DNA of 64,000 bases from a candidate division WOR-3 bacterium. Its GTDB lineage: Bacteria; Hydrothermota; Tepidihabitantia; Tepidihabitantales; Tepidihabitantaceae. Below the pieces are notes generated by a model. It was given only the letters and a program-made list of their open reading frames with translations, was not told the origin of the DNA and searched no databases. This document shows positions 3,963 through 31,864 of the stretch, one piece after another; within the stretch, counting starts at the first letter, position 1, and each line of letters begins with the position of its first letter. A program made the position numbers and the translations under genes. The stretch spans positions 488-64,487 of the forward strand of contig VGIR01000004.1 in NCBI GenBank assembly GCA_016867815.1, in the 5' to 3' direction.

Positions 3963-5444
3963 TCATCGTCCTGGCGGCAGTCGCACCCGGAACAGCGAAT
4001 CACTGCGCACCGCGAGCCACTCGAGCGCGCCGTCGGCACGGAACTCGGGGCCGCCCAGCAGCCGGTCATACTCCGCGCCGGGCAGGCCATCGACCACGAC
4101 CAGCGCCCGGTAGCCCCGGCCCGCCCGAAAGGCAAAGCGCCGGCTGTCTGGGCTGAAGACCGGCCGCGCGGCATCGTTGTACACCGTCCCGGGTTTGCCG
4201 TCGAGCACGGCGAACCAGCGGTCGACCGAGTCGTTGGCGCAATAGGCCAGATGCCGGCTGTCCGGGCTGAAGATAACGCTCTCATCCCGGATATCGTAGT
4301 ACTCCGCGCCGGGCAGGCTGTCATCAATCACCCGGGTCCGGTCGTTCTGCCAGGCAAGGACGGCCATGCGCCGGCTGTCCGGGCTGAAGACAGCCGGCTC
4401 GACACCGTCGTATGCCGGCCCGGGCACGCCGTCGCGCACCGTGAAAACCTTGTCTCCCTGCCGGGCCCGGTAGGCCAAGCTGCGGCTGTCCGGGCTGAAC
4501 ACCAAGTAATGCGCGTCCGCGTATTCCGGACCTTCCCGGCCGTCGACCACGACCCGGTACTGCTCGCCCCGGCGGGCGCAGTAGGCCATGCGCCGGCTGT
4601 CCGGGCTGAAGACCGGGCCGTCGGTGATCTCGTCGTACGCCGAACCGGGAGCAGTATCCTGCACAACAAACCACTTGTCGCCCCGGCGGGCCGAGTAAGC
4701 GAAGCTCCGGCCGTCCGGGCTGAAAACCGCCCCTTCCCGGCCGAGCGCGTCATACGCCGGCCCGGGCACCGAATCGACCACAATGAACTTTGCTTCGTCC
4801 TGCTCGGCGGAAAAGGCCAGGCGTCGGCTGTCCGGGCTGAAGACCAGTTCCCGGACACTCGTGTACTCCGGCCCGACCCGGCCGTCAATTACCACACGCC
4901 GGGCGCCTCTTTGCCAGAGGATGTACGCCGCGCGCCGGCTGTCCGGGCTGAAGATGAGCCCCCAGGCACCGTAGCCGCGCGGCCCGGCGACGCCGTCAAT
5001 CACCATCCACTGCCAGCTGCTGTCCCGCGCCGCGTAGCCGGTGCGCCGGCTGTCCGGGCTGAAGATCTGGTCGCCCAGCTCAATCTCATCGCATACCGGT
5101 CCGGGCCGGCCGTCGATCACGGCAAACGCCTTGCCGCCCTTCATGGCAATGTAAAGAGTATGTTGTCCGTCCGGGCTGAACGCGAGTTCACCGATCCAGA
5201 TCGAATCATAGATCCCGGCCTGCACTTTGCCGTCAAACCAGGCGCTCTGGCCGGAGTCGACCGCGACCACGCCTGCCGCGTGGCGCAGGTCCCGGCTGCG
5301 GACAATCTGGCCGACCAGCGCCGGAACCGGGCCGAGGAACTTCTCGGTCGCCTTCCCGGCCGGCCGCGCCCAGGTCAGAAAAGGGAGAAGACCGACGATC
5401 AACGCGCCGCGCAGACGAGGTCTCAAAGTCGATTCCTTTCGCAT
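3963..5444 (-). CDS. Secreted PD40 beta-propeller repeat protein, paralog B.
   Basis: Same repeat architecture as paralog A. Signal peptide MRKESTLRPRLRGALIVGLLPFLTWA at an internal ATG. Lies directly upstream of paralog A (23-nt gap). Confidence 0.75.
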   Translation of the reverse strand: MRKESTLRPRLRGALIVGLLPFLTWARPAGKATEKFLGPVPALVGQIVRSRDLRHAAGVVAVDSGQSAWFDGKVQAGIYDSIWIGELAFSPDGQHTLYIAMKGGKAFAVIDGRPGPVCDEIELGDQIFSPDSRRTGYAARDSSWQWMVIDGVAGPRGYGAWGLIFSPDSRRAAYILWQRGARRVVIDGRVGPEYTSVRELVFSPDSRRLAFSAEQDEAKFIVVDSVPGPAYDALGREGAVFSPDGRSFAYSARRGDKWFVVQDTAPGSAYDEITDGPVFSPDSRRMAYCARRGEQYRVVVDGREGPEYADAHYLVFSPDSRSLAYRARQGDKVFTVRDGVPGPAYDGVEPAVFSPDSRRMAVLAWQNDRTRVIDDSLPGAEYYDIRDESVIFSPDSRHLAYCANDSVDRWFAVLDGKPGTVYNDAARPVFSPDSRRFAFRAGRGYRALVVVDGLPGAEYDRLLGGPEFRADGALEWLAVRSDSLFRVRLPPGR

Positions 5445-5610
5445 ACATGTTCTTCCGAAGATCACACCGCATATTGTAGCAGGAAGGTAGAGCACTGTCA
5501 GGCGAAAACAGCCGCCGAGACTCCGCACTTGAGCCCACCACCAGGTCGGTGACCAGACCAGATCGGGAGTCAGAATCCTGCAGGTGGCCGAGCAACAGAA
5601 CGGACGCAGG

Positions 5611-7080
5611 CTAGTGCTGGAATGCGGACTGGAGGGCGGCGGCGATGATGGGAATCTCATCCTGGCGGAGGGTCCGGAAATCGAGCAGGTATTCGCCCTT
5701 CTCGACCCGGCCGAATACCGGTGGGCGATTGAGGCGCATCCGGCGGGCAAGCTCGTCCACGTGCACGGTCTTTGGCCGAACCGAAACCACGCGTGATTCG
5801 AGGCTCTCGGTGGCGAGCGACCCACCGCCGATTTCGGATAGCGCGGGCTTCACCTGGACTGCGGCCTTGTCCTTGAGCCTGGCCTGCACCTGACTCACAA
5901 GCGTCTCTGCCTCTTCCTGCATCTGCTGGGGAGTCTTGAGCAGGAGCTGGAACAGAGCGTGCTCCTTGACGACTCGCTCTTCGTCGAGGAAGAGCTCCAG
6001 GGTCCGTTCGAGCACGGCGTAGGTCAGCTTGCCGCAGCGCATGGCACGGGTGAGCGGGTGTTTCTTCAAGAGGTCGATGTACTTCTTCTTGCCGACGATG
6101 ATGCCTGCCTGCGACGCGGAAATCAGCTTGTCCCCGGAGAAGCAGATGACATCGGCTCCGGCTTTGACCGACTCCTGCACCAACGGTTCCTTGGGCAGGC
6201 CGTACTTCGAGAGGTCTATGAGCGCGCCGGAACCAAGGTCATCCACCACCAGCACCTTGGCCTCACGCGCCAGCCCGACCAGCTCTTCAAGTCCCACTTC
6301 CTTGGTGAACCCGGTAATCTTGTAGTTGGAAGTGTGGACCCGGAGCAGCAATGCCGTCTCGGACGTGATGGCATTCTTGTAGTCACGCAGGTGGGTACGG
6401 TTGGTTGTGCCTACCTCTACCATCTTGCATCCACTCTGCTGCATCACGTCGGGGATGCGGAATGCTCCGCCGATTTCGATGAGCTGGCCCCGCGAGACAA
6501 TCGCCTCCCTGCCCTTGGCCAGCCCCGAGAGGATGAGCAGCGTCGCGGCGCAGTTGTTGTTGACGACCATCGCCGCCTCGGCCCCGGTCAGCTCGCAGAG
6601 CAGCGGCTCGATGTGTCGATAGCGGCTGCCGCGCCTGCCAGTCTCAAGGTCGATTTCGAGGCTGGAGAAATGCTCGCTCACGTCGGCCAGCGCTTCCTGC
6701 GCGGCCTTGGACAACGGCGCGCGACCCAGCCCGGTATGCAGGATGACGCCGAGTCCGTTGATCGCCCGAGTCAGGGTCGGCTTGCGCTCGCGTTCAAGAC
6801 GCCGCTCTAGTTCGGTCTGGTCGTAGGCAACGCCCTCGCCAGCGTGAATCTTCTCCCGCAGTTCATCCAGGTAGACCCGTATCGTACGCACCGCCATTCG
6901 ACGGTGGACGTGAGACAGAACCGGCTTCAGTTCCTCACTCTCGAGCAGCTTGTCTACCGATGGCAGAGACCGAAAAGTGGCCCCGTGATCTAGTGGTCCA
7001 GTGTTCGAGTGTCCGGTCGGGAGTCCCGCACTTGACCTCTTGACCACTTGAGCACTAGACCGCTGCTGTTTCTTCTTCAC
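5611..7080 (-). CDS. selA: L-seryl-tRNA(Sec) selenium transferase (selenocysteine synthase).
   Basis: Full-length similarity to SelA (..FRSLPSVDKLL.., VVNNNCAATLLIL, VSRGQLIEIGGAFRIPDVM, HTSNY, FSGDKL...). GTG start at 7080 abuts the mcsB stop. The first ~35 codons are encoded by palindromic repeat element E1. Confidence 0.85.
   Translation of the reverse strand: MKKKQQRSSAQVVKRSSAGLPTGHSNTGPLDHGATFRSLPSVDKLLESEELKPVLSHVHRRMAVRTIRVYLDELREKIHAGEGVAYDQTELERRLERERKPTLTRAINGLGVILHTGLGRAPLSKAAQEALADVSEHFSSLEIDLETGRRGSRYRHIEPLLCELTGAEAAMVVNNNCAATLLILSGLAKGREAIVSRGQLIEIGGAFRIPDVMQQSGCKMVEVGTTNRTHLRDYKNAITSETALLLRVHTSNYKITGFTKEVGLEELVGLAREAKVLVVDDLGSGALIDLSKYGLPKEPLVQESVKAGADVICFSGDKLISASQAGIIVGKKKYIDLLKKHPLTRAMRCGKLTYAVLERTLELFLDEERVVKEHALFQLLLKTPQQMQEEAETLVSQVQARLKDKAAVQVKPALSEIGGGSLATESLESRVVSVRPKTVHVDELARRMRLNRPPVFGRVEKGEYLLDFRTLRQDEIPIIAAALQSAFQH
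6988..7062. repeat. Palindromic repeat element E1 (GTCNAGTG-type octamers x4, centre CGGGACTCCCG, inverted octamers x4), in-frame inside the selA 5' coding region.
   Basis: Read from the sequence; the plus and minus strands are near-identical. A homologous element sits in the lolD 5' region. Confidence 0.6.
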
Positions 7081-8120
7081 GGATGCACCAGCGTCTCTCG
7101 GACGAATGTGGCGCGGCGCTCGTCGCGTTCCGCCGCGGTCAGGTTCTCGCCCAGCAGCGCCTGCAGGTTCGCAGGACGGACAAGTATCATCAGCCGCGTC
7201 ACCTGCTCCAGGCTGATCTCGTTGACTATGCCAAGGGTGACTCCGAGCCTGAGGCCGGCAATCAGGTTTATCGCCTCGTCCGAAGAGAGGACGCGCGCGC
7301 CCCGCAACAGGCCAAGCGACCGGAAGACCTTGTCTTCGACCTCGACCCGCAGCTTCTTCATCAGGTACTCACGCGCCTTCCGCTCGTACAGAATCACCTG
7401 CCGACTGATGTCGGCGATCGTCTCGATGATCTCCCACTCGGTCTGGCCGACCGTCTTCTGGTTGGAAATCTGGAAGAAGTTGCCCTTGGTTTCAGTTCCC
7501 TCGCCGTACAGGCCGCGCACCGCGAGGCCGATATGGATGGCCCCGCGCAGCACCTTTTCGATCTCGCGGGTGATGACCAGCGCGGGGAGGTGCACGAGAA
7601 CCGAGGCCCGCATTCCGGTGCCGAGGTTGGTCGGGCACGCGGTCAGGAATCCGAACTCGGGCGAGAAGGCGTACTGAAGCTGGCTCTCCAGCTTCTCATC
7701 AAGAGCCGCCGCCGCAGTGAAGGCCTCGGGGAAATCGAGGCCGGATGCCATCACCTGGAACCGAAGGTGGTCTTCTTCGTTGATCATCAGGCTCGTGGCT
7801 TCATCGTTGCCGACGTAGAACCCGCGCTTTGCCTTGGAGGCGATGAAATCGGGCGAAGCGAGGTGACGCTCGATCAGGTACTGGCACTGCGGGTCGGCAA
7901 GCTGCTCGTTCTGGAGGAACTTGCCGTTCTCCAGGTAGCCGGTGTCGGTAAGCGCCCAGCGTACGACGTCAACGGTACGTTCGTGGTCGCGGGGCTCTGC
8001 CCGGTGGGTGAAGGGTACGTCGGCCAGGTTCCGCGCCAGCCGGACGCGGGTGGAGAGGACTACGTCAGCTTCCGGGCCGGAGGCCGCAAGCCACTTCCCG
8101 ACCGAACCGCCTGGACTCAT
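7077..8120 (-). CDS. mcsB: Protein arginine kinase (ATP:guanido phosphotransferase family).
   Basis: Phosphagen-kinase signature CPTNLGTGMRASV and an McsB-like N-terminus (VVLSTRVRLARNLADVPF). Confidence 0.8.
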   Translation of the reverse strand: MSPGGSVGKWLAASGPEADVVLSTRVRLARNLADVPFTHRAEPRDHERTVDVVRWALTDTGYLENGKFLQNEQLADPQCQYLIERHLASPDFIASKAKRGFYVGNDEATSLMINEEDHLRFQVMASGLDFPEAFTAAAALDEKLESQLQYAFSPEFGFLTACPTNLGTGMRASVLVHLPALVITREIEKVLRGAIHIGLAVRGLYGEGTETKGNFFQISNQKTVGQTEWEIIETIADISRQVILYERKAREYLMKKLRVEVEDKVFRSLGLLRGARVLSSDEAINLIAGLRLGVTLGIVNEISLEQVTRLMILVRPANLQALLGENLTAAERDERRATFVRETLVHP

Positions 8121-8133
8121 AGAAGCGGAGTAT

Positions 8134-8212
8134 CACCACCAAGGCACCAAGACACCAAGTCCGAGAACGGACTTCCTGTCCGGTCTGCTTTGTGCCTTTG
8201 TATCTTTGTGGC
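8134..8212. repeat. Palindromic repeat element E2 (ACCACCAAG GCACCAAG ACACCAAG, a 28-nt spacer, then CTTTGTGC CTTTGTAT CTTTGTGG) in the mcsA-mcsB intergenic region, ~22 nt upstream of the mcsB ATG.
   Basis: Read from the sequence. The arms differ from perfect complements by one systematic position per heptamer. Confidence 0.65.
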
Positions 8213-8220
8213 GGGCATCC

Positions 8221-8709
8221 TCACTCCCCTTCAGTTTTCCGGAGTTGGTCGCGCAGGGCCGCGGCCTTCTCGTAGTCTTCGTCCTGTATGGCGCCGGACA
8301 GCGCCTCGCGCAGCTTCTGGACGTTCATCTTCATCTGCGCCTGCTTGCGCCCTCCGCTCGCGGTCCTGCCGACGTGCTGCACCGCGTCGTGGATCCGTCT
8401 TATCAGCGGTACGAGCTGATCGTGAAATGACGTGTAACACTCGGCGCAGCCGAGCCGGGCCTGCCGTTTGAACTCGGCATAGGAGAGGCCGCAATTCGGG
8501 CAGATCAGCTTCGAATCGCCCTCATCGATGCGGTTCTTCAGCTCGGTGATGATCTCGGCTACGTTCGCCTTCAGCTTCTCGACTTCGGTGAACCCTCGCT
8601 GGCGGGCGCATTCGGGGCAGATGGTGATCTCCGTGACCTTGCCCTCCTTGTCGAGCTGGCTCACCTTCATTGTCGCCTCACCCTTGCCGCAGAGGTCACA
8701 TGCCTTCAT
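8221..8709 (-). CDS. mcsA: McsA-like activator of protein arginine kinase (zinc-ribbon plus UVR domain).
   Basis: MKACDLCGK...ICPECA...CPNCG...CAECY Cys pairs and a C-terminal UVR motif (EDYEKAAALRDQL). Start placed at the internal MKAC; the track ORF extends further upstream. Confidence 0.6.
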   Translation of the reverse strand: MKACDLCGKGEATMKVSQLDKEGKVTEITICPECARQRGFTEVEKLKANVAEIITELKNRIDEGDSKLICPNCGLSYAEFKRQARLGCAECYTSFHDQLVPLIRRIHDAVQHVGRTASGGRKQAQMKMNVQKLREALSGAIQDEDYEKAAALRDQLRKTEGE

Positions 8710-8732
8710 ATGGATGGAAAAACCGGAGGTCC

Positions 8733-8800
8733 GCCACAAGGGCACAAAGACCCGAAGAGGCCCCAGACTCTGGAACCTTCGGGACTTTGTGTTCTAGTGG
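8733..8800. repeat. Palindromic repeat element E3 (CACAAGG GCACAAAG ACCCGAAG, a 19-nt loop, then CTTCGGG ACTTTGTG TTCTAGTG) between lolD and mcsA.
   Basis: Near-perfect 15-bp inverted repeat. Belongs to the same heptamer family. Confidence 0.6.
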
Positions 8801-9573
8801 TTGGATTCCTCATCGAGCTTCCCTGCGGCGAGATGCAGCCGTCGCGTCGCCCGGTCCGCAACCGCCTGGTTGTGAGTCACGACCAGAATCGTCATCTTCC
8901 TTTCGTTGCTCAAGCGCACCATCAAGTCGACCAGGGCGGCCGCCGACGTCGTATCGAGGTTACCGGTCGGTTCGTCCGCCAGGATTACTGCCGGGTCGTT
9001 CACCAGCGCCCGGCCCATGGCGGCGCGCGCCTGCTCGCCGCCCGACAGCTCAGCCGGACGATGGGTCAGGCGGGAGGTGAACCCGATCTCCTCGAGTACT
9101 TTGTGCGCCCTGACCAACGCCTCGGCACGGGCAACACCCGCCACCAACAGCGGCATCGCCACATTCTCGAGAACCGTGAACTCGGAGAGCAGGTGGTGGA
9201 ACTGGAACACAAAGCCCAGTTTCCGGTTTCTCACCTCGTGCAGCTCCGACTCAGGGTAGCTGAAAACATCCAGTGAATCAAGCAGCACCCGGCCTCTGGT
9301 GGGCCGATCCAGAGCGCCGAGAACGTGCAGCAGGGTTGACTTGCCGGTGCCCGAAGGACCGAGAATGGCCACCAGGTCGCCGCGCTGCACTTCCAGATCG
9401 ACACCCCGCAGGATTTCAAGCCGCTCCGTCCCGGTTTCGAATACGCGCCAGACATCGGTCGCCTGAAGGACAGGCGTGTGGTCGAGTGGCGCCGTGGTCG
9501 AGTGGTCAAGTGCCGAACTCCCGGCCGAACACTGGTTCACTGGACCACTAGACCACTGCTTCTGCTCACTCAT
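8794..9573 (-). CDS. lolD: ABC transporter ATP-binding protein, LolD/FtsE/MacB family (lipoprotein release).
   Basis: Walker A GPSGTGKST, signature LSGGEQ, Walker B ILADEPTG. Its start overlaps the stop of the LolC/E-type permease by 8 nt. The N-terminal ~35 aa are encoded by repeat element E4, so the true start is uncertain. Confidence 0.75.
   Translation of the reverse strand: MSEQKQWSSGPVNQCSAGSSALDHSTTAPLDHTPVLQATDVWRVFETGTERLEILRGVDLEVQRGDLVAILGPSGTGKSTLLHVLGALDRPTRGRVLLDSLDVFSYPESELHEVRNRKLGFVFQFHHLLSEFTVLENVAMPLLVAGVARAEALVRAHKVLEEIGFTSRLTHRPAELSGGEQARAAMGRALVNDPAVILADEPTGNLDTTSAAALVDLMVRLSNERKMTILVVTHNQAVADRATRRLHLAAGKLDEESNH
9480..9560. repeat. Palindromic repeat element E4 (GTCTAGTG GTCCAGTG AACCAGTG, a centre, then CACTTGAC CACTCGAC CAC..CACTCGAC) inside the lolD 5' coding region.
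   Basis: Aligns with E1 in the same orientation and reading frame. Confidence 0.55.
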
Positions 9574-10789
9574 ACCTTATCGCCTCCAGCGGCACGAGCC
9601 TCGCTGCCTGCAGCGCCGGATAGATGGTGGCGGCAAAGGTAATAGCAATAGCCGAGATACAGACTAACGTCACATCCTGCACCATGACCTGCACCGGCAG
9701 GTTCTTGATGAAGTAGACGTCGCCGGGCAAAGAGACGAAGCGATACTTGTTCAGCAGCCAGCATGCGACCAGGCCGAAGACCGAACCCGTAACGGTACCG
9801 ATGATACCGATGAACCCGCCGGCCAGTATGAAGATGCGCGTCACGGTTGAGGACTTGGCCCCCATCGCTTTCAGGATACCTATCTCGCGGGTCTTGCGGA
9901 TGACCATCATCGTCAGCATGCCGATGATGTTGAACGCGGCAACCAGCACGATCAGCACCAGCACGATGAACGTAACGACCTTTTCCAGGCGCAAAGCGGT
10001 GAAGAGATTGCGGTTCTGCATTATCCAGTCGGTAGCGCGATACGGGTATCCAAGCTGCCGCGTGATGCGCCGCCCGATGCGGGCCGCAGCGTAGACGTCA
10101 CGCACGCGTAACTCGAACCCGGTAACCATTTTCTCCATGCCGAGGAACTGCTGGATTCCGGCCAGCGAAAGGTAGACGAAGCTCGAATTGTACTCGTACA
10201 TGCCGCAGTCGAAGATGCCGTTCACGACGAAGTACTTGGTGCGGGGCAGGAAGCCGAAGGCGGTCATCGTCCCGCCGAAGGGCGAAGCGAGGTTCAGCGA
10301 GTCACCGATGGAAAGCCCGAGTATACGCGCCAATTCGATGCCGATGACAACCCCGCTCGAGTCAAAGTCGAACTGCCCCTGGACAATGGTGCCGGATATG
10401 TCGGTGATATCGTCTTCGTACTCCGGATCGACGCCGCGAACCACGACACCCTCGACCCCGTTCTCGGTCCTTACCAACGTCTTGGCGTAGATGAACGGAG
10501 CGACCGACAGGACACCCGGAACCCGGGCAATCTCCTGCTGGAGCGAGTCGCCTCCGCCGGCCGGATACGGGATCGGCTCGAACGAATACTTGGCCACAAC
10601 CACATGCGGGGTAGCGCCGAGAATCCGATCCTTCAGCTCCTGGTGGAATCCGTTCTCGACCGAGAGAACGATGATGATTGCCGCAACGCCGACGAACACG
10701 CCACCCATCGCAATCGCGGTTATGCCGGAGAAAGTGCGCCTGCCCCTGCCGCGCAGGTACCGCCGCGCCATGAAGAGTTCGAATCTCAT
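9566..10789 (-). CDS. Lipoprotein-releasing system permease, LolC/LolE family (FtsX-like).
   Basis: N-terminus MRFELFMARRYLRGRGRR..., four TM segments and an FtsX-like C-terminus. Positioned in an operon with lolD. Confidence 0.8.
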   Translation of the reverse strand: MRFELFMARRYLRGRGRRTFSGITAIAMGGVFVGVAAIIIVLSVENGFHQELKDRILGATPHVVVAKYSFEPIPYPAGGGDSLQQEIARVPGVLSVAPFIYAKTLVRTENGVEGVVVRGVDPEYEDDITDISGTIVQGQFDFDSSGVVIGIELARILGLSIGDSLNLASPFGGTMTAFGFLPRTKYFVVNGIFDCGMYEYNSSFVYLSLAGIQQFLGMEKMVTGFELRVRDVYAAARIGRRITRQLGYPYRATDWIMQNRNLFTALRLEKVVTFIVLVLIVLVAAFNIIGMLTMMVIRKTREIGILKAMGAKSSTVTRIFILAGGFIGIIGTVTGSVFGLVACWLLNKYRFVSLPGDVYFIKNLPVQVMVQDVTLVCISAIAITFAATIYPALQAARLVPLEAIRYE

Positions 10790-10809
10790 GGTAGACGGAC
10801 CGGAGTCTT

Positions 10810-10888
10810 ACCACCAAGACACCAAGACACCAAGGTCGGAATCCGGCCGGCCGGAGAGATCTCTTTGTGCCTTTGTGCCTTTGTGGTG
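10810..10888. repeat. Palindromic repeat element E5 (ACCACCAAG ACACCAAG ACACCAAG, a 27-nt spacer, then CTCTTTGTG CCTTTGTG CCTTTGTGG) between lysS and the LolC/E gene, ~22 nt upstream of the permease ATG.
   Basis: Nearly identical to E2 in its arms. The distal context CTTGGTGGTRAKACTCCG..ATG is shared with mcsB. Confidence 0.65.
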
Positions 10889-10903
10889 AGAATCCTCACC
10901 GAA

Positions 10904-12451
10904 TCAGGATTCTTTCTGAGGCCGGAGTTGCGGAAAGAGAATCACGTCTCTGATGGTCGGTGAGTTCGTCAGCAGCATGGCAATCCGGTCAATCCCCAGT
11001 CCGAGGCCGCCGGTCGGCGGCATGCCGAACTCGAGCGCGGTGCAGTAGTCCTCGTCCACCGTCGCAAACTCCTCATTCAGAGCCACGCCCTCCTCGAACC
11101 GCTCCCGCTGCTCGGCCGGGTCGTTCAGCTCAGAGAACGCGTTGCCCAGTTCCATGCCGCATACCACCGGCTCGAACCGCTCGACCAGTTCCGGGTTGTC
11201 GCGGTGGCTCTTGGCCAGCGGCGTCGTCACCTTCGGATGGTCCATCACGAAGGTCGGGTCAATGATGTGGTCCTGTATCAGCTCGGAGAAGAGCTTGTCC
11301 AGCAGCTTGGCGCGGGAAATGTCCTCCGTGGTCTGAACGTTGAAGCGCGCCGCGACCTTCCTCAGCATCGGCATGGAGAGCTTCATCGGGTCCGTCTCAA
11401 TCCGCGCTGCCAGCGTGTCCACGAATTTCATCCGCTGCCAGGGTCTGCCGAAATCAACGATGTGGTCGCCGAACGGTAGCTCCGTCTTGCCGCAGACCTC
11501 CATGGCGAGGAACTTGAACAGCTCCTCGACCAGCGCGAGCACGTCATTGTAGTCGGCATAGGCCCAGTAGAGCTCCATCTGGGTGAACTCGGGATTGTGC
11601 GTCCGGTCCAGTCCCTCGTTGCGGAAATCCTTGCCGATTTCGAAGACCTTCTCCAACCCGCCGACGATCAGCCGCTTCAGGTACAGCTCGTCGGAAATCC
11701 GCATGAACATCTTCTGCTCGAGCACGTTGTAGAATGTCTCAAACGGACGGGCTGCGGCACCGCCGTAGATCGGCTGCAGAATCGGCGTCTCGACCTCGGC
11801 AAACCCGCGCTCGGAAAGGAACCGCCGCACGAGCCCGGTGATCTTGGTCCGATTCAGCAGCACCTGCCGCGACTCCTGATTGACAATAAGGTCAACGTAG
11901 CGCTGCCGATAGCGCATTTCGACATCTGTCAGACCGTGGAACTTCTCCGGCAGCGGATGTAGCGACTTTGTGAGGAGAACCAGTTCCTTCACGTTGACCG
12001 TCACCTCCCCGGTCTTGGTGCGGAACATCTCGCCCCGCGCTCCCACGAAGTCGCCTAGGTCGAGCAGACCAAGGTTCGCGAACGCCTGCTCGCCCAGGGT
12101 GTCCTTCCGCAGGTAGAGCTGCAGTCTCCCGGTTTCGTCCTGGATGTGGCCGAACTGGGTCTTCCCGTGCTCCCGCCGCGACATCAGCCTGCCCGCAACG
12201 CTCACTGCGAACAGGGGCGTGGGCAGAGGGGCTGTACCGGATTGCGGCGCTCCTGGCGCCGGAGACTGTCCCTGCCCGCTCAGATCCTCGAACTCCGCTA
12301 TCGCCTTCGCATTCGTGTGGGTCCGTTCCCACTTGTACGCGTAAGGATTGACACCGGCCTCGCGCAACTTCGCGAGTTTGCCGAGCCTGACTTCGCGGTC
12401 ATGGCCGCTGGTCTGAGTCGGTGGTTGTTGCTCCTGTGGGTTGTCGCTCAT
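10904..12451 (-). CDS. lysS: Lysine--tRNA ligase (class II).
   Basis: Class II aaRS motifs throughout (FRNEG, GGLGLGIDR...). About 505 aa with a typical OB-fold N-domain. Confidence 0.9.
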   Translation of the reverse strand: MSDNPQEQQPPTQTSGHDREVRLGKLAKLREAGVNPYAYKWERTHTNAKAIAEFEDLSGQGQSPAPGAPQSGTAPLPTPLFAVSVAGRLMSRREHGKTQFGHIQDETGRLQLYLRKDTLGEQAFANLGLLDLGDFVGARGEMFRTKTGEVTVNVKELVLLTKSLHPLPEKFHGLTDVEMRYRQRYVDLIVNQESRQVLLNRTKITGLVRRFLSERGFAEVETPILQPIYGGAAARPFETFYNVLEQKMFMRISDELYLKRLIVGGLEKVFEIGKDFRNEGLDRTHNPEFTQMELYWAYADYNDVLALVEELFKFLAMEVCGKTELPFGDHIVDFGRPWQRMKFVDTLAARIETDPMKLSMPMLRKVAARFNVQTTEDISRAKLLDKLFSELIQDHIIDPTFVMDHPKVTTPLAKSHRDNPELVERFEPVVCGMELGNAFSELNDPAEQRERFEEGVALNEEFATVDEDYCTALEFGMPPTGGLGLGIDRIAMLLTNSPTIRDVILFPQLRPQKES

Positions 12452-12524
12452 CGGGCAAGACTATATCCGTGTCAGAGGCGAAGTCAAACAGACGAAGAAG
12501 AGATCGACGCCGGGACAGGCACCT

Positions 12525-12552
12525 ACCACCAAGTCACAAAGACACAAAGATG
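12525..12552. repeat. Partial element E6 (CCACCAAG TCACAAAG ACACAAAG) upstream of lysS.
   Basis: Only one arm type is clearly present. Confidence 0.4.
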
Positions 12553-12588
12553 GATCTGGAAGCAGCCGCTACCGATGCACGCGCAAGG

Positions 12589-13407
12589 CTACTTCTTCTT
12601 GTGCCCGCTGGCAACGAGCCAGCTCCGCTCAACAACTCCCCAAACCGGATTGTCCGCATCGTGCTGCAGAAGCTCTCCATAGACACGCCAAGGCCGACTC
12701 CGACTCCAGAACTGCAGGCTCTGAACTATTCGGCGTTCGGCAGGCTGTGCACGCAGTCCAATCTCGCCCCCCGACTCAGTCCGGACCTGGTAGACAATGC
12801 CGCGCGGTCTGACGACGCGCCCTCCGACGGTGTCCCCTTCATCGAGCAGACGCTGGACCGATGCGGCGTCGGCGACGCCCGATATCTCGCGTTGCCACGC
12901 CGCGTAGTCCTCAAGCTTCCTGGGCTGGAACATAGTATCTACTTCCTCCGGCTTCAGCGGAAACCTGGGGAGGCACTGCTCGCCGCCAAACAGAGCGCCG
13001 ACCAAACCGGAGGCGCTCACCACGGTCTCCGGAGCGACATTGTCGCGTGGTCCGGAGAACAGAACCTGACGAACAACGAGCCAGTTGTCCGTACGAACGT
13101 ACCACACAAAGTCGTCCCTGGATGTCCCGTTTCGACGATCCTGGGCTTCGGCCCGCAGCACGTAGCAGTCCTGTTGTTCGACCGTCTCGACGCCGGCTAC
13201 ACAATATCGTTTGTAGCTGCAGCCGGAGTCAACCGCAGGATCGACTCTTGCCGGCTCCCAGGTCTTGACCACCCACCAGTCGCCCACTCGCCACCTGGGA
13301 GCAAAGTTCATCTTCCCGCCCGCGGTGAACTGCCGCGCGCATGCCGCGACAGCCAACGCGGTCAGGGCGACTCTCGTCCAACGCACGACACCAGTGTATA
13401 ACGACAC
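12589..13407 (-). CDS. Hypothetical secreted lipoprotein.
   Basis: Signal peptide with a lipobox (LAVAAC). No recognisable domain. Confidence 0.5.
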   Translation of the reverse strand: MSLYTGVVRWTRVALTALAVAACARQFTAGGKMNFAPRWRVGDWWVVKTWEPARVDPAVDSGCSYKRYCVAGVETVEQQDCYVLRAEAQDRRNGTSRDDFVWYVRTDNWLVVRQVLFSGPRDNVAPETVVSASGLVGALFGGEQCLPRFPLKPEEVDTMFQPRKLEDYAAWQREISGVADAASVQRLLDEGDTVGGRVVRPRGIVYQVRTESGGEIGLRAQPAERRIVQSLQFWSRSRPWRVYGELLQHDADNPVWGVVERSWLVASGHKKK

Positions 13408-16432: not shown

Positions 16433-16951
16433 ATGGGTCGCATCCTCTGTATAGACTACGGCGAGCGGCATACGGGCGTTGCGGTCTCTGACCCGACGCG
16501 AACCATCGCGCAAGCTTTGCCGACCATCCATCACTCGAGCAAACGCGAGCTGCTGGAAGCGCTTAGGCGGCTCATTGCCGAGCAGGAGGTGACTGAGGTC
16601 GTCATCGGCCTGCCGGTGGCTCAATCCGGCAAGCCGAGCCGTCGGTCCGAGCAGGTGCGGAGTTTCGCCGGGCAACTGAGGAAGGCAACCGGCCTGTCTG
16701 TGGCGACGTTCGATGAACGCTTCTCGACCGCCCGAGCGACCGAGGTGCTGGAGGAGATGTCGGGCGGCCGCGACCTCGCGCCCGGCAAGCGCGCAGCCAC
16801 CGGCCGGAACCGGAAGCGCCGCGAAGCCGTGGACCGGATAGCCGCGACCATCATCCTTGAAGACTACCTGGCTGAGATGGGGGACCGCACGAAGAACCCA
16901 GAATCCAGAGTCCAGAATCCAGAATCCAGAAGTACCGGAGCCGGGGCGTGA
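16433..16951 (+). CDS. ruvX: Holliday-junction resolvase-like protein YqgF/RuvX.
   Basis: MGRILCIDYGERHTGVAVSD... RNase-H-like YqgF motif. The C-terminal tail KNPESRVQNPESRST is encoded by an 11-bp tandem repeat (CAGAATCCAGA x3). Confidence 0.75.
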   Translation: MGRILCIDYGERHTGVAVSDPTRTIAQALPTIHHSSKRELLEALRRLIAEQEVTEVVIGLPVAQSGKPSRRSEQVRSFAGQLRKATGLSVATFDERFSTARATEVLEEMSGGRDLAPGKRAATGRNRKRREAVDRIAATIILEDYLAEMGDRTKNPESRVQNPESRSTGAGA

Positions 16952-17955
16952 AACCACCAGGATACCGGTGCACCAAGGTCCTGGTCCTGACCTCTTTGTG
17001 TCTCTGTGCCTTTATGGTGGGTCACCTCTCGTGTTCGAGCCGCGTGCCGTCGAACGGCCGGAAGGTCGAGGTGGTGGTGCGGCCCGGCCAGAGCGCCACG
17101 TCCATCGCCGACACCCTGGTTGTGAAGCAGGTCATCGGCTCCAAACCGCTGTTCCTGCTATACGCCTGGTACTACAACTACAATGCCCGCCTGCGCGCCG
17201 GCCGCTACCAGCTTTCCATCGGCACCGGCGAGCGGCGCGCGCTCCGGCTGCTGGCCGGCGAAGAGGCCGCGGTGACGATGGTCACGATTCCCGAGGGCTA
17301 CACCATGAACGAAATCGCAGCGGTGCTGGCGGAACGCGGGGTCTGCCCGGCCGACAGCTTCCTGAGCGCGTGCATGGATACGAGCCTGCTCCGGCAGTCC
17401 GGCGTGAGGGCGGCGACCGCCGAGGGCTACCTGTTTCCGGAGACCTATGAATTCCTCAGCGGCTCCGCGCCAGCCGATGTCGCGCGCAGGCTGATCCGCC
17501 AGTTCTTCTCGGTGTTCGCCGAACTCCACGACTCCTCACGCCTCCCTCCTGCCTCTTTCCTCACTCCCTCGCAGGTCGTGATACTCGCGTCCATCGTCGA
17601 GCGCGAAGCCAGGGTGCCGGAGGAGTTCCCGCGCATTGCCGGAGTATTCGCTAATCGCCTGCGCCGGCGCCTGCCGCTGCAGTCTTGTGCCACCGTCGAG
17701 TACCTGCTGCCGCAGCGCAAGGGACGGCTGTCGGTAGAGGACACGAAGATAGCGTCCCCGTACAATACCTATCTCCACGCCGGCCTGCCGCCCGGGCCGA
17801 TCTGCAATCCGGGCCGCCGCGCGCTGGCCGCCGCGCTCCATCCCGAGCGGAACGACTATCTCTTCTTTGTCGCCCGCGGCGACGGCACCCACCTCTTCTC
17901 CCGCACCGCGGCCGAGCACGCTGCGGCCTGCCGCCGCGTCCGCGACGGCGGCTAG
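16948..17955 (+). CDS. mltG: Endolytic murein transglycosylase MltG (YceG family).
   Basis: YceG-like domain (..VVVRPGQSATSIADTL..., NTYLHAGLPPGPICNPG). ATGA overlap with the ruvX stop. The N-terminal TM anchor is encoded within repeat element E7. Confidence 0.8.
   Translation: MKPPGYRCTKVLVLTSLCLCAFMVGHLSCSSRVPSNGRKVEVVVRPGQSATSIADTLVVKQVIGSKPLFLLYAWYYNYNARLRAGRYQLSIGTGERRALRLLAGEEAAVTMVTIPEGYTMNEIAAVLAERGVCPADSFLSACMDTSLLRQSGVRAATAEGYLFPETYEFLSGSAPADVARRLIRQFFSVFAELHDSSRLPPASFLTPSQVVILASIVEREARVPEEFPRIAGVFANRLRRRLPLQSCATVEYLLPQRKGRLSVEDTKIASPYNTYLHAGLPPGPICNPGRRALAAALHPERNDYLFFVARGDGTHLFSRTAAEHAAACRRVRDGG
16954..17020. repeat. Palindromic repeat element E7 (CACCAGG..CACCAAGG, a spacer, then CTCTTTGTG TCTCTGTG CCTTTATGG) at the ruvX/mltG junction. 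It encodes the MltG N-terminal hydrophobic segment and supplies an in-frame ATG.
   Basis: The right arm matches E5 at 27 of 31 nt. Confidence 0.5.
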
Positions 17956-29889: not shown

Positions 29890-29918
29890 ACGGCAGACAG
29901 TAGACAGCATACAGGGCA

Positions 29919-29940
29919 GGGGCGGGCGAAAGCCCGCCCC
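29919..29940 (+). terminator. GC-rich GNRA-tetraloop hairpin (GGGGCGGGC GAAA GCCCGCCCC) after the YVTN gene. A conserved terminator-like element.
   Basis: Perfect 9-bp stem. The flanking GACAGCA..CAGGG context is shared with the hairpin at 16372. Confidence 0.45.
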
Positions 29941-30005
29941 TGCGTCCTTCGATCTACTCGCCGTGACGATGTCCTAGGCTCGCTGCCGAGCGCGATTCTA
30001 CGACG

Positions 30006-30236
30006 CTGTAGAATAGCGCGGCAGCGGGCTTTCGGGCCTATGTGTTTGAGGCTCGAGGCCTTAGGCTTGAAGCTGACGAAATGACCCCTGTACCTGAGGG
30101 AATACCCCCTGCATCGTTCACATCGTTGTATCGTACATCGTTCCTCAGACAGTCGCAAACGTAGTCCCGGAAAGTCCTTCGTCCCTGGTCTCCAGAGCAG
30201 TCTGACCGGGAGTTCGAGGGCTTGCGTGCCGAACAG
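30006..30236 (+). ncRNA. Conserved noncoding element, copy 2 (homologous to 13509-13760).
   Basis: See copy 1. Sits in a 1.06-kb ORF-free gap and is followed by a perfect 9-10-bp hairpin at ~30276-30305. Confidence 0.3.
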
Positions 30237-30432
30237 CAGGGGATGCAGTTTGCCGGTCTGCAGTCCGGGTTCCTCTCCACTGAGTCCGGGCGTTTGCGGC
30301 CCGGACTGCCGCTGAGACAGCAGTCCAGATTGCGTGCGGGTCAGTCTCCAGACTTGCCTGCCGGGCTATGCGCGGAGGCAATGCAAACTGCAGAATGCAG
30401 ACATCAAAGTGCAGAATGGCGGACCCGAGGAT

Positions 30433-30455
30433 CACCACCAAGGCACCAAGGCACT
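30433..30455. repeat. Partial element E8 (CACCACCAAG GCACCAAG GCAC) in the 1-kb intergenic gap, followed by a 9-bp tandem repeat (GAATGACGA x3, ~30465-30500).
   Basis: Read from the sequence. Confidence 0.4.
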
Positions 30456-30794
30456 ACGATGGAGGAATGACGAAGTCCGAATGACGAATGACGATTGAAA
30501 CTCGAAGCCCGAGGGATGAAACCGCCGATGCACGCCGATGGACGCAAATAGGCGGACCTGGGTAGTTCAGAATCTAGAAACCAGAGGCAACGCGGCCAAA
30601 GGCCGCGAGTTTCCAAGCGAGCCTCTCAAGCAGCTCTTGACCGAGCTTTCGCACGTGCTGCCGAGGGATCTTCCCTTCGACCTTTTGGCACAGCTTTGAG
30701 CTGCGATTCCCCAGTTCCCATTTGGCAGTTTGCGGTGGAGGAGCGGACCCAAGGCTGAGTAGTCTGCGGGTTCCGTGGATAGCAGGCCGCGGGG

Positions 30795-30822
30795 TTGACA
30801 TCCTCGGTCACTGGACTAGAAT
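30795..30822 (+). promoter_or_regulatory. Putative sigma70-type promoter (TTGACA-N16-TAGAAT) for the TPR gene.
   Basis: Read from the sequence. GGAGGAG SD before the ATG at 30950. Confidence 0.4.
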
Positions 30823-30949
30823 CTCATTCTGAGCAGACCGTCTTGCGTGTAGACGGATACCCCTGGCGAGCGGCCGCGGTCCATGCGTGTGGCCGGGAAA
30901 TGCCGCACCCCGGGGTGGCATCAAGTCGAGAGTAGAGGAGACATCGTAG

Positions 30950-31864
30950 ATGAGCAGCAAATCCGACCGTTGGCATCGCAGGCCTGCAAAGCCTGACGCT
31001 GCCGAGGACCGCGGTCCGGGCGTGACGCCGCAGACAGCAGCGCACGGCGGGCAGCCATCCGCCGACACGCCGGTGCAGGAAGCAGAGGAGTGGTGCATGA
31101 AGGCGGTTGCCCTGCACCGGGAAGGCCGACTCGAGGACGCAATCCCTCTTTTCGATAAAGCGCTGGAGCTGAATCCCCGTGAAGCCCGAGGCTGGGCGGG
31201 CAAAGGTCTCTGTCTTGATGCGCTGGGCCGAGACGAAGAGGCGCTCGCCTGCTACAGCGAGGCACTCGCAGACGCCCCACGGGACGCCGAGGTCTGGTGG
31301 CTCAAGGGTGATGCCCTTGAAAGGCAGGGCCGGCACGAGGAGGCGCTGCGACACCTGGACAAGGCACTCGAGCTCGATCCCTGCCTGGCAAACGCGTGGA
31401 TCGACGAAGGACTGGCCCGCAAGGCTCTCGGCCGGTGCGATGAAGCGGTTCGCTGCTATGACCAGGCGCTGAAGCTGGACAGGCGCAGCCCGGAAGCCTG
31501 GTACAACAGAGGGAACGCCCTCTGTGCCCTGGGACGGTTTGAGGAGGGACTCCGCTGCTTCAGCGAGTCGCTGGTGCTCAACCCGCACGACGCGAGCGCC
31601 TGGAGCAACAAAGGCGTCTGCCTTGCCGGCCTGGGCCGCCACGAGGAAGCGGTCGCCTGCTTCGAAAAGGCCCTGCAGATCGACCCCTTGTACCCGGTGG
31701 CTTGGCGGGCAAAGGCAGTGGCACTGGAACGGCTTGGCCGGATAGCGGAAGCGGTCGAGGCGTACAAGCAGTTCATCACGCTTGCATCTGCCGACGATGC
31801 CGCGTCGGTCGAGGGCGTAGAGAAGCACGTTCGCGAGTTGGAGAGCGCATCGGCCGCATCGTAG
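30950..31864 (+). CDS. TPR-repeat protein (about 7 TPR units).
   Basis: Repeated W.AKG.AL..LGR.EEA..CYD.AL.LDP consensus. The long minus-strand ORF 30824-31828 is its antisense shadow. Confidence 0.75.
   Translation: MSSKSDRWHRRPAKPDAAEDRGPGVTPQTAAHGGQPSADTPVQEAEEWCMKAVALHREGRLEDAIPLFDKALELNPREARGWAGKGLCLDALGRDEEALACYSEALADAPRDAEVWWLKGDALERQGRHEEALRHLDKALELDPCLANAWIDEGLARKALGRCDEAVRCYDQALKLDRRSPEAWYNRGNALCALGRFEEGLRCFSESLVLNPHDASAWSNKGVCLAGLGRHEEAVACFEKALQIDPLYPVAWRAKAVALERLGRIAEAVEAYKQFITLASADDAASVEGVEKHVRELESASAAS

What the first reader, a model, noticed from the sequence alone, without database searches (positions are those of the whole stretch)
6988..7080. selA and lolD share a ~35-aa N-terminal extension encoded by palindromic elements E1/E4 in the same frame
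The first ~35 codons of selA (VKKKQQRSSAQVVKRSSAGLPTGHSNTGPLDHGATF) and of lolD (MSEQKQWSSGPVNQCSAGSSALDHSTTAPLDHTPV, 9478-9573) are homologous at both DNA and protein level. Both are made of the octamer-repeat palindrome. In both genes the sequence lies between an upstream overlapping or abutting stop and the first conserved residues of the protein family. No alternative canonical start codon exists downstream of the element before conserved sequence begins. Either the elements insert in-frame and are tolerated as N-terminal tags, or translation initiates at a non-canonical codon inside the element.
Basis: seen in the sequence. Interest (0 to 1): 0.5.

Follow-up and report, generated by a model that had tools for sequence, protein, structure and literature searches.

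The report
Palindromic repeats translated inside gene starts
In an uncultured WOR-3 bacterium, two copies of a short hairpin-forming repeat sit in frame just after the start codons of selA and lolD, most likely giving both proteins a floppy extra N-terminal tail, much as the palindromic elements of Rickettsia do.

Summary
selA (5611-7080) and lolD (8794-9573), both on the minus strand, each begin with about 34 extra codons. These codons come from a ~77-81 nt palindrome (6985-7061; 9478-9558) whose arms are tandem octamers GTGGTCNA / TNGACCAC.

The two copies are inverted relative to each other. They read alike only because the element is palindromic and has one stop-free frame on the gene strand.

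Each start codon overlaps the upstream gene's stop (GTGA for selA, ATGAGTGA for lolD). This arrangement is conserved in relatives that lack the element, and those relatives run from it straight into the conserved core. The gene frame is open in all 9 selA and 13 lolD junctions examined. All length differences are multiples of 3. Several relatives have no other canonical start.

Period-7/8 arrays were found only in the window's closest relatives among the loci scanned. There they occupy every junction of the lysS-selA gene cluster and also interrupt other genes in frame. They are swapped like cassettes between sister species. This is a new variant of a known kind of repeat. No function or mobilising enzyme was identified.

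The parts
5611..7080 (-). selA ORF (489 aa) read from the GTG that overlaps the mcsB stop. The conserved SelA sequence begins at residue ~35.
   Evidence: (SelA 107-471, Se-cys_synth_N 36-75)
7077..7080 (-). GTGA overlap: the selA GTG start (7080-7078) and the mcsB TGA stop (7079-7077). This is a translational-coupling arrangement kept in all relatives (ATGA or TGATG where there is no element).
6985..7061 (-). selA element (~77 nt). On the gene strand the left arm is 7061-7029 (GGTCTAGT GCTCAAGT GGTCAAGA GGTCAAGT), the loop is 7028-7012, and the right arm is 7011-6985 (CACTCGAA CACTGGAC CACTAGAT CAC). It encodes residues ~7-32.
8794..9573 (-). lolD ORF (259 aa) read from the ATG that overlaps the end of lolE. 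The conserved LolD sequence begins at residue ~35.
9566..9573 (-). ATGAGTGA overlap: the lolD ATG (9573-9571) and the lolE TGA stop (9568-9566). A GGAGG Shine-Dalgarno-like motif lies 9 nt upstream, inside lolE.
9478..9558 (-). lolD element (~81 nt). The left arm is 9558-9530, the loop is 9529-9513 (TTCGGCCGGGAGTTCGG), and the right arm is 9512-9478. It is inverted relative to the selA copy and encodes residues ~6-32.
9460..9476 (-). Small second hairpin CGCCTG-TCCTT-CAGGCG immediately after the lolD element, within codons (T)PVLQA. The stem is kept and the loop varies in close relatives.
8135..8211 (-). Sibling intergenic palindrome between mcsA and mcsB, built from CACAAAGN x3, a loop, and CTTGGTGN x3. 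It has the same architecture but a different octamer, and starts ~10 nt after the mcsA stop.
8733..8793 (-). Sibling intergenic palindrome between lolD and mcsA. It starts directly after the lolD stop.
10809..10889 (-). Sibling intergenic palindrome between lysS and lolE, built from CACAAAGG x3, a loop, and CTTGGTGT x3. It starts ~15 nt after the lysS stop.
12526..12551 (-). Octamer array upstream of lysS, next to a promoter-like site at 12487-12460.

Best explanation
The two segments are copies of a lineage-specific dispersed palindromic repeat, in opposite orientations. Each copy is about 80 nt: three to four tandem octamers GTGGTCNA, a ~17-nt GC-rich loop, then the inverted octamers.

In the close relatives of this WOR-3 bacterium, repeats of this kind (period 8 and period 7) sit at gene boundaries, usually within about 15 nt after a stop codon. 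In the lysS-lolE-lolD-mcsA-mcsB-selA gene cluster, two boundaries have no spacer, because the downstream start codon overlaps the upstream stop. At those two boundaries the repeat lies inside the first ~100 nt of the downstream gene.

Only insertions that keep the reading frame and lack stop codons survive. The repeat is therefore read through from the ancestral start codon and adds a ~27-30-residue Ser/Gly/Pro/Thr/His-rich tail that is probably unstructured. The tail lies ahead of the tRNA-binding N-domain of SelA and ahead of the ATPase core of LolD.

What is shown: the anatomy, the inverted orientation, the conserved start codon, frame conservation, insertion relative to element-free orthologs, and the existence of a family with other in-frame copies.

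What is inferred: that the tail is actually translated, that it is functionally neutral, and how the repeat spreads or is replaced.
For: Insertion relative to element-free orthologs.
- Distant WOR-3 orthologs have 4-15 residues before the conserved core. Close ones have 25-48.
- The element-free relative L011 has the same gene order with overlapping or abutting genes.

Reading frame and start codon.
- The start codon overlapping the upstream stop is conserved in every junction.
- Junction lengths are all 2 mod 3 for selA and 1 mod 3 for lolD.
- The gene frame is open in 22 of 22 junctions. Other frames are open in 9 of 34 cases among the close relatives.
- There is no alternative canonical start in L012, L013, L014 and L016 (selA) or in L017, L018 and L031 (lolD).

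A dispersed family.
- Period-7/8 arrays occur only in the close clade, at every junction of the gene cluster.
- A metagenome scan with the octamer pattern found 45 copies on WOR-3-like contigs. Eight lie inside called genes.
- Three insertions are supported by Pfam matches. The match runs across the insert in a GalE-like epimerase and in methylmalonyl-CoA mutase. In a MutL-family protein the insert lies between the matched domains.
- SelA orthologs carry further in-frame inserts after residues 84, 273 and 402.

Tail probably unstructured.
- AlphaFold pLDDT is below 50 for LolD residues 1-3 and 7-26, and about 93 from the fourth block of ten residues onward. It is below 50 for SelA residues 1-28.

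Precedent.
- Rickettsia palindromic elements are integrated in frame in many genes (PMC10969869).
Against: - There is no protein-level or ribosome-level evidence that the tail is made.
- Each window element has an in-frame GTG at codon 12 that could serve as a start.
- Codon usage inside the elements looks non-coding. JGI called selA from M62, and my own codon-usage caller picked M62 for selA and V12 for lolD.
- Within the type-A subset, the arms are 90-98% identical between species, against 63-78% at third codon positions of the flanking genes. This is not what a purely neutral tail predicts. It points to nucleotide-level constraint or homogenisation. The subset was chosen by type, so this comparison is biased.
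- No target-site duplication, parent insertion sequence or transposase was found.
Confidence: 0.72

Rival explanations
1. The elements are in frame but are not fully translated. In this genome initiation would occur at the internal GTG (codon 12 of each gene) or at a non-canonical codon. The upstream part would then act as a structured leader, and the proteins would carry a shorter tail or none.
For: In-frame GTGs exist at +29 (selA) and +25 (lolD) after the upstream stop. My codon-usage caller prefers V12 for lolD and M62 for selA, and JGI called selA from M62.
Against: A start at M62 would delete most of the conserved Se-cys_synth_N domain (residues 36-75), and that region evolves like coding sequence. 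The internal GTG is simply part of the octamer. Relatives with other element types have no internal start, yet keep the frame open from the overlapping start. If the first 11 codons were untranslated there would be no reason for the frame to stay open and the lengths to stay multiples of 3 upstream of codon 12. That specific sub-region was not tested on its own.
Confidence: 0.12
2. The hairpins are kept because they do something as RNA or DNA. They would be intercistronic 'punctuation', like E. coli REP elements, placed within 15 nt of the upstream stop codon. In that position they could stall terminating ribosomes, tune coupling between cistrons, or protect upstream mRNA from 3' exonucleases. 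The peptide would be a by-product. This is compatible with translation through the element.
For: All five elements inside the window's gene cluster start 0-15 nt after the preceding stop. About 15 of the metagenome copies lie 26 nt or less after a stop. The arms of type-A copies are far more conserved than synonymous sites, and change is confined to the N positions and the loop. The lolD site keeps a strong hairpin (z -2.8 to -6.3) across three unrelated sequence types. In E. coli, REPs within 15 nt of a stop stall ribosomes (PMC12306157). Heptamer arrays in Xanthomonas and Nostoc also cluster 0-50 bp after stops (PMC4692102).
Against: At the selA site the hairpin is weak or absent in four of nine species: hybrid arms in L012 and L014, and direct heptamer arrays in L016 and L013, with z-scores of -0.85 to -2.3. 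Copies also sit in the middle of unrelated enzymes, where no cistron boundary exists. Element-free relatives manage with a compact gene cluster. No compensatory substitutions were seen, because paired positions are invariant. Proximity to stops can arise from tolerance alone, because gene ends are the only permissive places in a dense genome.
Confidence: 0.25
3. These are not copies of a mobile or dispersed element. They would be simple-sequence arrays that expanded independently in place by polymerase slippage at each locus, with the resemblance between selA and lolD being convergent.
For: The arms are short-period tandem arrays. Unit number and unit type vary between orthologous sites, and units differ by single substitutions: GTGGTCAA, GGGGTCAA, GGGATCAA, GGGTTCAA. 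Heptamer simple-sequence repeats elsewhere are thought to arise by slippage (PMC4692102).
Against: The two window copies share the whole composite structure, including a 17-nt loop: TCCGGTCGGGAGTCCCG against TTCGGCCGGGAGTTCGG when one is reverse-complemented. The same arm-loop-arm unit recurs on many contigs. Sister species L016 and L018 (94% identical) differ by replacement of the whole ~100-nt cassette at both sites, with flanks 90-100% identical right up to the element. Stepwise slippage does not produce that pattern.
Confidence: 0.08

Closest known systems
Rickettsia palindromic elements (RPEs)
   Same: Both are dispersed palindromic repeats frequently integrated in frame in unrelated housekeeping genes. 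The host ORF is maintained and the extra peptide is tolerated (PMC10969869). Here the hosts are selA, lolD, a GalE-like epimerase, methylmalonyl-CoA mutase and a MutL-family protein.
   Different: RPEs are ~100-150 bp unique-sequence elements of Alphaproteobacteria. These are ~80 nt, belong to an uncultured WOR-3 lineage, and have arms made of tandem 8-nt (or 7-nt) units. Most copies are intercistronic. Orthologous sites are swapped between element types. No sequence comparison with RPEs was made.
Heptameric tandem-repeat arrays of cyanobacteria and xanthomonads (STRR; GGGAATC / GGGGAYT arrays)
   Same: Both are short-period tandem units dispersed over the genome, mostly 0-50 bp after stop codons and some overlapping them. 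Both include paired inverted arrays, an intragenic fraction, and extensive length and sequence variation between close relatives (PMC4692102). Heptamer arrays (GGGGTCA, AGAATCC, GAAGTCA) co-occur with the octamers in this clade.
   Different: The two elements in question have period 8 and a fixed arm-loop-arm palindrome. They are read in frame at gene 5' ends. G-quadruplex potential applies only to the GGGGTCA variants in relatives, not to the window copies.
REP / BIME elements of Enterobacteria and pseudomonads
   Same: Both are imperfect palindromes at intercistronic and 3' positions in operons, many within 15 nt of the upstream stop. REPs in that position can stall ribosomes or stabilise mRNA (PMC12306157). 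Both show species-specific sequence at conserved positions.
   Different: REPs are by definition extragenic and 14-40 nt long, with no internal tandem units, and are linked to RAYT transposases. Here two copies are genic and translated in frame, and no RAYT was seen in the 64-kb window or the fetched loci.
PARCELs (palindromic amphipathic repeat coding elements)
   Same: Both are palindromic DNA repeats that are part of coding sequence and readable on either strand (PMC2996958).
   Different: As I recall them (the paper was listed but not read), PARCELs are longer units repeated in tandem inside surface proteins and encode amphipathic modules. The present elements are single copies per site and encode low-complexity tails.

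Membership tests
RPE-like in-frame palindromic repeats (functional class) | Palindromic repeat present in multiple dispersed copies | tested here: met
   There are two copies in the window and 45 further copies on WOR-3-like metagenome contigs. The hairpin z-scores are -2.4 and -3.2.
RPE-like in-frame palindromic repeats (functional class) | Inserted inside protein-coding genes with the host reading frame preserved | tested here: met
   The gene frame is open in 22 of 22 orthologous junctions and lengths are multiples of 3. Internal copies occur in a GalE-like epimerase and MM_CoA_mutase, where the Pfam match spans the insert, and in a MutL-family protein, where the insert lies between matched domains.
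RPE-like in-frame palindromic repeats (functional class) | Inserted peptide is actually translated and compatible with the fold | tested here: inconclusive
   The only support is indirect. The tails precede the first conserved residues and have pLDDT below 50. There are no proteomic data.
Rickettsia RPE families proper | Sequence homology to one of the described RPE families; rickettsial host | not tested
   No RPE sequences were available for comparison. The host is candidate division WOR-3, so membership is not claimed.
REP/BIME | Extragenic location | tested here: not met
   Both elements lie inside the selA and lolD ORFs. The sibling elements at 8135-8211, 8733-8793 and 10809-10889 are extragenic.
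REP/BIME | Association with a RAYT (IS200/IS605-like Y1) transposase in the genome | not testable with these tools
   No transposase domain was found among the window genes scanned here or carrying Pfam annotation in the same-strain locus L001. Small ORFs were not scanned. The rest of the genome was not available.
MITE | Terminal inverted repeats plus target-site duplication, derived from a parent IS | tested here: inconclusive
   The arms are inverted repeats. No direct duplication is evident at the flanks when filled and empty sites are compared by eye. No parent IS was identified.
Short tandemly repeated (7-nt) arrays, STRR type | Tandem heptanucleotide units | tested here: not met
   The window elements have period 8. 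Heptamer arrays do occupy the same two sites in relatives L016, L017 and L018.
Short tandemly repeated (7-nt) arrays, STRR type | Location close to the 3' side of stop codons; strong variation between close relatives | tested here: met
   The elements start 0-15 nt after stops in the window's gene cluster. Whole cassettes are replaced between sister species that are 94% identical.
Known RNA families (Rfam) | Match to a curated covariance model | tested here: not met
   There were no matches at gathering thresholds for the whole window, and none at E <= 1 for 5300-12800.

The most novel reading that the evidence does not exclude
The repeats are not passive passengers. They would be an actively maintained system of hairpins (or G-quadruplexes) adjacent to stop codons, which punctuates operons in this WOR-3 lineage. 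An unidentified mechanism would home to existing elements or to the 3' side of stop codons. It would replace whole ~80-100-nt cassettes while keeping the reading frame. Where cistrons overlap, essential proteins would then carry interchangeable N-terminal tails. The arms are conserved well above synonymous sites, both sites were swapped precisely between sister species, and every junction of the gene cluster is occupied. All three fit targeted turnover, regulatory function, or both.
Probability: 0.22. Interest if true: 0.72.

Novelty: new variant of a known kind. Interest (0 to 1): 0.5.

Why it matters
1. Genome annotation. JGI's calls and my own codon-usage caller start selA at Met62, which removes the tRNA-binding N-domain. 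About 15 of the 120 listed SelA homologs begin at this Met. Some database proteins also begin inside intergenic repeats. Knowing the repeat family would correct the 5' ends of genes across this WOR-3 lineage.

2. Generality of the Rickettsia phenomenon. Selfish palindromes living inside genes are here seen in a free-living, uncultured phylum and with a different repeat architecture.

3. A natural experiment on N-terminal tails. Sister species carry different, cleanly swapped cassettes at the same codons of essential genes. This allows study of how much arbitrary N-terminal sequence proteins tolerate, and of how such repeats move or convert.

4. Possible regulation. If the position next to stop codons is functional, it would be a REP-like post-transcriptional layer in a phylum with no genetics.

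Tried and rejected
- **Gapless inverted-repeat finder.** It missed both elements because the arms have periodic mismatches. I replaced it with motif density, blastn, lag-8 autocorrelation and TRF.
- **Peptide searches for other host proteins, all uninformative.**
  - The exhaustive representative search gave 7 hits, all spurious ORFs over unrelated tandem repeats.
- **Rfam.** Nothing was found.
- **Terminator scan.** No terminator-like site lies at the elements, so they are not intrinsic terminators.
- **Transposase search.** None was found among the window genes scanned or annotated.
- **Covariation test.** It was uninformative because the paired positions are invariant among type-A orthologs.
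- **First ORF-based classification of metagenome copies.** It was too noisy in GC-rich DNA, so I replaced it with a codon-usage model trained on window genes.
- **Concordance of element type within a genome.** I considered that each genome might have its own flavour at both sites. This is rejected, because the selA and lolD types are not concordant: WIN A/A; L017 and L018 A/heptamer; L016 C/A; L012 hybrid/D; L013 C'/D.
- **Large recombination tract between L016 and L018.** This is rejected, because identity stays at 90-100% right up to the element on both sides.
- **One structure look-up returned no DNA** because the sample file was too large.
Full report
**What is in the window**

- Both genes are on the minus strand. 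selA is 5611-7080 and lolD is 8794-9573.
- The selA GTG (7080-7078) overlaps the TGA of the upstream arginine-kinase gene mcsB (GTGA). The lolD ATG (9573-9571) overlaps the last codons and stop of lolE (ATGAGTGA), and a GGAGG motif lies 9 nt upstream.
- About 16-19 nt after each start codon there is an imperfect palindrome of ~77-81 nt: 6985-7061 in selA and 9478-9558 in lolD.
- On the gene strand each palindrome reads as three to four tandem octamers of the form G(T/A)GGTCNA, then a ~17-nt GC-rich loop, then the inverted octamers (T)NGACCAC.
- The motif GGTCNAGTG occurs 8 times in 64 kb, all inside these two segments. The expected count is 3.2, and 1 of 100 shuffles reached 8.
- Motif-density and blastn scans find no third copy of this type in the window.
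- The mRNA strands fold to -38.5 and -44.1 kcal/mol, with z-scores of -3.2 and -2.4.
- The quoted peptides are exact and share 12 of 32 residues.

**Corrections to the description**

- The two copies are inverted relative to each other. They match at 63 of 82 positions when one is reverse-complemented, against 55 of 83 in the same orientation. blastn gives 79% against 71%.
- The loops also match only in the inverted orientation: TCCGGTCGGGAGTCCCG against TTCGGCCGGGAGTTCGG.
- The peptides look alike because the element is palindromic. Any run of three octamers (24 nt) cycles through all three codon phases, so it always spells ..VV(K/Q)WSSG.. on one strand and ..LDHSTTGP.. on the other.
- The shared frame is forced, not a coincidence. 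Only one of the six frames of the selA element is free of stops, and only one frame on the gene strand of the lolD element is.
- Each element does contain an in-frame GTG at codon 12.

**The segments are extra**

- SelA residue 35 aligns with residue 8 of E. coli SelA (8uzw). LolD residue 35 aligns with residues 3-5 of solved LolD chains.
- Pfam's Se-cys_synth_N domain begins at residue 36.
- No ATG, GTG or TTG lies in frame between either element and the conserved core.
- AlphaFold models built with 51-sequence alignments give pLDDT below 50 for LolD residues 1-3 and 7-26, rising to about 93 in the next block of ten residues. SelA residues 1-28 are also below 50, but that model is poor overall. 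This fits unstructured tails without proving them.

**Who has it**

- The organism belongs to candidate division WOR-3. LolD is 100% identical to an NCBI WOR-3 protein, and the same strain appears in Lake Tanganyika metagenomes.
- SelA homologs with 80% identity or more that were called from the upstream start carry 22-42 residues before the LPSVDKLL motif. Those below about 75% identity mostly carry about 10-15.
- LolD behaves the same way, with 34-48 residues against 4-15.
- The extensions fall into several unrelated-looking sequence types. Examples are RSSAQVVKRSS..GHSTTGPLDH, GSRGRGVKGSS..LESSNPGPLESS, GSGVRGQGSG..RSQKLEARSQ, KGQRDRGTEG..LDPLIPRSLDPS and GTRDEGLGTG..PNPQPLTPNP.
- At the DNA level these are the same architecture with point-variant units: GTGGTCAA, GGGGTCAA, GGGATCAA and GGGTTCAA, plus the heptamers GGGGTCA, GAAGTCA and CCCCGAT.

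**Orthologous loci**

- The gene order lysS-lolE-lolD-mcsA-mcsB-selA is conserved.
- The element-free relative L011 has a compact cluster with overlapping or abutting genes. There SelA reads MNDKGVMFRSLPSVD from an ATG that overlaps the mcsB stop, and LolD starts at the same ATG overlapping the end of lolE.
- In the window's close clade (eight GTDB species, McsB 86-89% identical), period-8 and period-7 arrays are frequent. They are essentially absent from about 70 more distant loci.
- In that clade the arrays occupy every junction of the cluster.
- The window's other junctions carry palindromes with the same architecture but a different octamer, CACAAAGN / CTTGGTGN, at 8135-8211, 8733-8793 and 10809-10889.
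- All five elements inside the window's cluster begin 0-15 nt after the preceding stop codon.
- The two junctions where start and stop overlap are exactly the two where the element ends up inside the downstream gene.

**Evidence that the element is read through from the ancestral start**

- The overlapping start codon is present in all junctions examined.
- The distance from the upstream stop to the conserved core is always 2 mod 3 for selA: 26, 59, 98, 104, 107 and 110 nt.
- It is always 1 mod 3 for lolD, across 13 junctions from 22 to 115 nt.
- The gene frame is open in 9 of 9 selA and 13 of 13 lolD junctions. Among the close relatives, the other two frames are open in 3 of 18 and 6 of 16 cases.
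- In L012, L013, L014 and L016 (selA) and in L017, L018 and L031 (lolD) the overlapping start is the only canonical in-frame start.
- With roughly eleven independent element types, and about a 0.26 chance that a given frame is open, this pattern is not expected unless the region is translated. This is my own estimate from those counts.
- Codon usage inside the elements looks non-coding. That explains why JGI called selA from Met62 (P0002 is this very protein, truncated) and why my own codon-usage caller picks M62 and V12.
- A start at M62 would remove most of a domain that evolves as coding sequence, with identities of 0.92, 0.92 and 0.67 at the three codon positions.

**A dispersed family that also sits inside other genes**

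- One metagenome scan with GTGGTCNAGTGGTCNAGTG gave 45 elements on contigs with WOR-3-like composition.
- I classified them with a codon-usage model trained on window genes. Eight lie inside called genes, and about fifteen lie 26 nt or less after a stop, often filling the whole intercistronic spacer.
- Three insertions have Pfam support:
  - a GalE-like epimerase, where the match runs across the insert KTLDHSTTRPLDHSL;
  - a methylmalonyl-CoA mutase, where the match runs across the insert VVQRSSGQVVEC;
  - a MutL-family (PF13941) protein, where the insert lies between the matched domains.
- An HsdR_N-like protein gave only a weak partial match.
- SelA itself carries further repeat-derived in-frame inserts after residues 84, 273 and 402 in relatives.

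**Evolutionary behaviour**

- Among species that keep type A, the arms are 90-98% identical. Third codon positions of the flanking genes are 63-78% identical.
- Change in those arms is confined to the N of each octamer, which forms 1x1 mismatches every eighth position, and to the loop.
- This subset was chosen by type, so the comparison is biased. The pattern is nonetheless bimodal: a copy is either nearly identical or wholly different.
- A neighbour-joining tree of mcsB plus the selA core places L016 and L018 as sisters (94% nucleotide identity), with L017 next.
- L017 and L018 have type A at selA and a GGGGTCA/CCCCGAT heptamer palindrome at lolD. L016 has direct heptamer arrays at selA and type A at lolD.
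- Identity between L016 and L018 is 90-100% right up to both sides of each element and 38-48% only across the ~100 nt of the element. The length differences are 6 and 18 nt.
- This is cassette-like replacement that preserves the frame. It is neither a long recombination tract nor stepwise slippage.
- L012 and L014 have hybrid elements, with a D-type left arm and an A-type right arm, and weak hairpins.
- L020 (73% McsB identity) keeps a decayed right arm, which suggests the site has been occupied for a long time.

**What it most likely is**

- It is a lineage-specific palindromic repeat of the REP/MITE/RPE sort, with arms built from short-period units like cyanobacterial and xanthomonad heptamer arrays.
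- It is tolerated at gene boundaries. Where cistrons overlap, it is tolerated in frame in the N-terminal tail of the downstream protein.
- I put 0.72 on translation from the ancestral start with a tolerated tail, and 0.12 on initiation at the internal GTG in this genome.
- I put 0.25 on a REP-like RNA-level function.
  - For it: the position next to stops, arm conservation, and a persistent hairpin at lolD (z -2.8 to -6.3 across three sequence types). In E. coli, REPs within 15 nt of a stop stall ribosomes (PMC12306157).
  - Against it: loss of the hairpin at selA in four species, copies in the middle of enzymes, and compact element-free relatives.
- I put 0.08 on independent in-place expansion at each locus.
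- No terminator-like feature, Rfam family or transposase was found.

**Comparison with what is known**

- Rickettsia palindromic elements are the closest functional precedent for in-frame genic palindromes (PMC10969869).
- Heptamer arrays of Xanthomonas and Nostoc share several features: short-period units, proximity to stops, inverted pairs, an intragenic fraction and rapid variation (PMC4692102).
- REP/BIME elements share intercistronic placement but are extragenic by definition.
- The present elements combine these traits and add cassette-like turnover at fixed codon positions.
- I found no paper describing such repeats in WOR-3. One five-term search that included 'WOR-3' returned none among its top 10 that mention it, and a REP survey of bacteria and archaea does not mention WOR-3.
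- I therefore rate this a new variant of a known kind, of moderate interest.

Noticed in passing
window 8135-8211, 8733-8793, 10809-10889, 12526-12551; also 16971-17000 and 30436-30454: A second octamer-palindrome family (CACAAAGN x3, loop, CTTGGTGN x3) fills the other intercistronic gaps of the lysS-selA gene cluster. Its translation (..HQDTKT.., ..LCAFV..) shows up in spurious ORFs and in the N-termini of some database SelA entries (P0057, P0059, P0069, P0072).
   Followed up: partly
window 16893-16931; 29880-29914; 30380-30418; 30465-30498: There are heptamer tandem arrays: AGAATCC x5.6 at the 3' end of the RuvX-like ORF, GCAGACA around the stop of the 27532-29889 gene, and AATGCAG and GAATGAC in the ~1.1-kb gap 29890-31021. 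The window therefore holds period-7 as well as period-8 arrays.
   Followed up: no
window 9460-9476 (and the same place in L012-L018, L031): A small hairpin CGCCTG-N5-CAGGCG lies in codons P-V-L-Q-A right after the lolD element. Its stem is invariant and its loop variable across close relatives, and it is absent in L011. It could be chance codon conservation, part of the element, or a target.
   Followed up: partly
SelA orthologs P0004, P0005, P0008, P0019, P0023, P0032 etc.; L012 6265-6298, 6867-6904, 7278-7304: Relatives carry further in-frame repeat-derived inserts inside SelA, after window residues 84 (..SRKPQ..), 273 and 402. The insert after 402 reaches 39 aa and includes GTVP/DRVP-type and GLGTG..PDP-type palindromes. 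These make proteins of 500-525 aa.
   Followed up: partly
P0002 and about 15 of the 120 listed SelA homologs (P0026, P0033, P0034, P0037-P0044, P0046 and others); L001-L008 and L010 gene calls: Many SelA entries were called from a Met equivalent to window residue 62 and so lose the Se-cys_synth_N domain. For the window strain (L001-L008, P0002) and for L010 the DNA shows this is caused by the repeat at the 5' end. The other entries were not checked at the DNA level.
   Followed up: yes
window 55385-63988 (-), tandem repeat 56674-62607: A giant 2867-aa ORF has a papain-like peptidase C1 domain, many CARDB domains (19 copies of a 312-nt repeat) and a C-terminal FlgD_ig-like domain. It is probably a secreted surface protease.
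   Followed up: no
L009 117-476, L010 8380-8739: In several relatives a 23S-rRNA-intervening-sequence-protein gene (PF05635) is inserted between lysS and lolE. It is absent from the window, where a palindrome occupies that gap.
   Followed up: no
window 12487-12460 (-) and 5501-5473 (-): There are sigma-70-like promoter matches (10 of 12 positions) upstream of lysS and downstream of selA. No terminator-like site lies in between, which is consistent with lysS-selA being one transcription unit.
   Followed up: no
window 5520-5600 (-), just after the selA stop: A degenerate stretch (..CTGGTCTGGTCACCGACCTGGTGGTGGGCTCAAGTGCGG..) looks like a decayed type-A element 3' of selA.
   Followed up: no
L017 1250-1327, L018 175-260: The lolD tail in these species is encoded by (GGGGTCA)x4 followed by C-rich heptamers. 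This is a canonical G-quadruplex motif on the coding strand, directly after the start codon.
   Followed up: no
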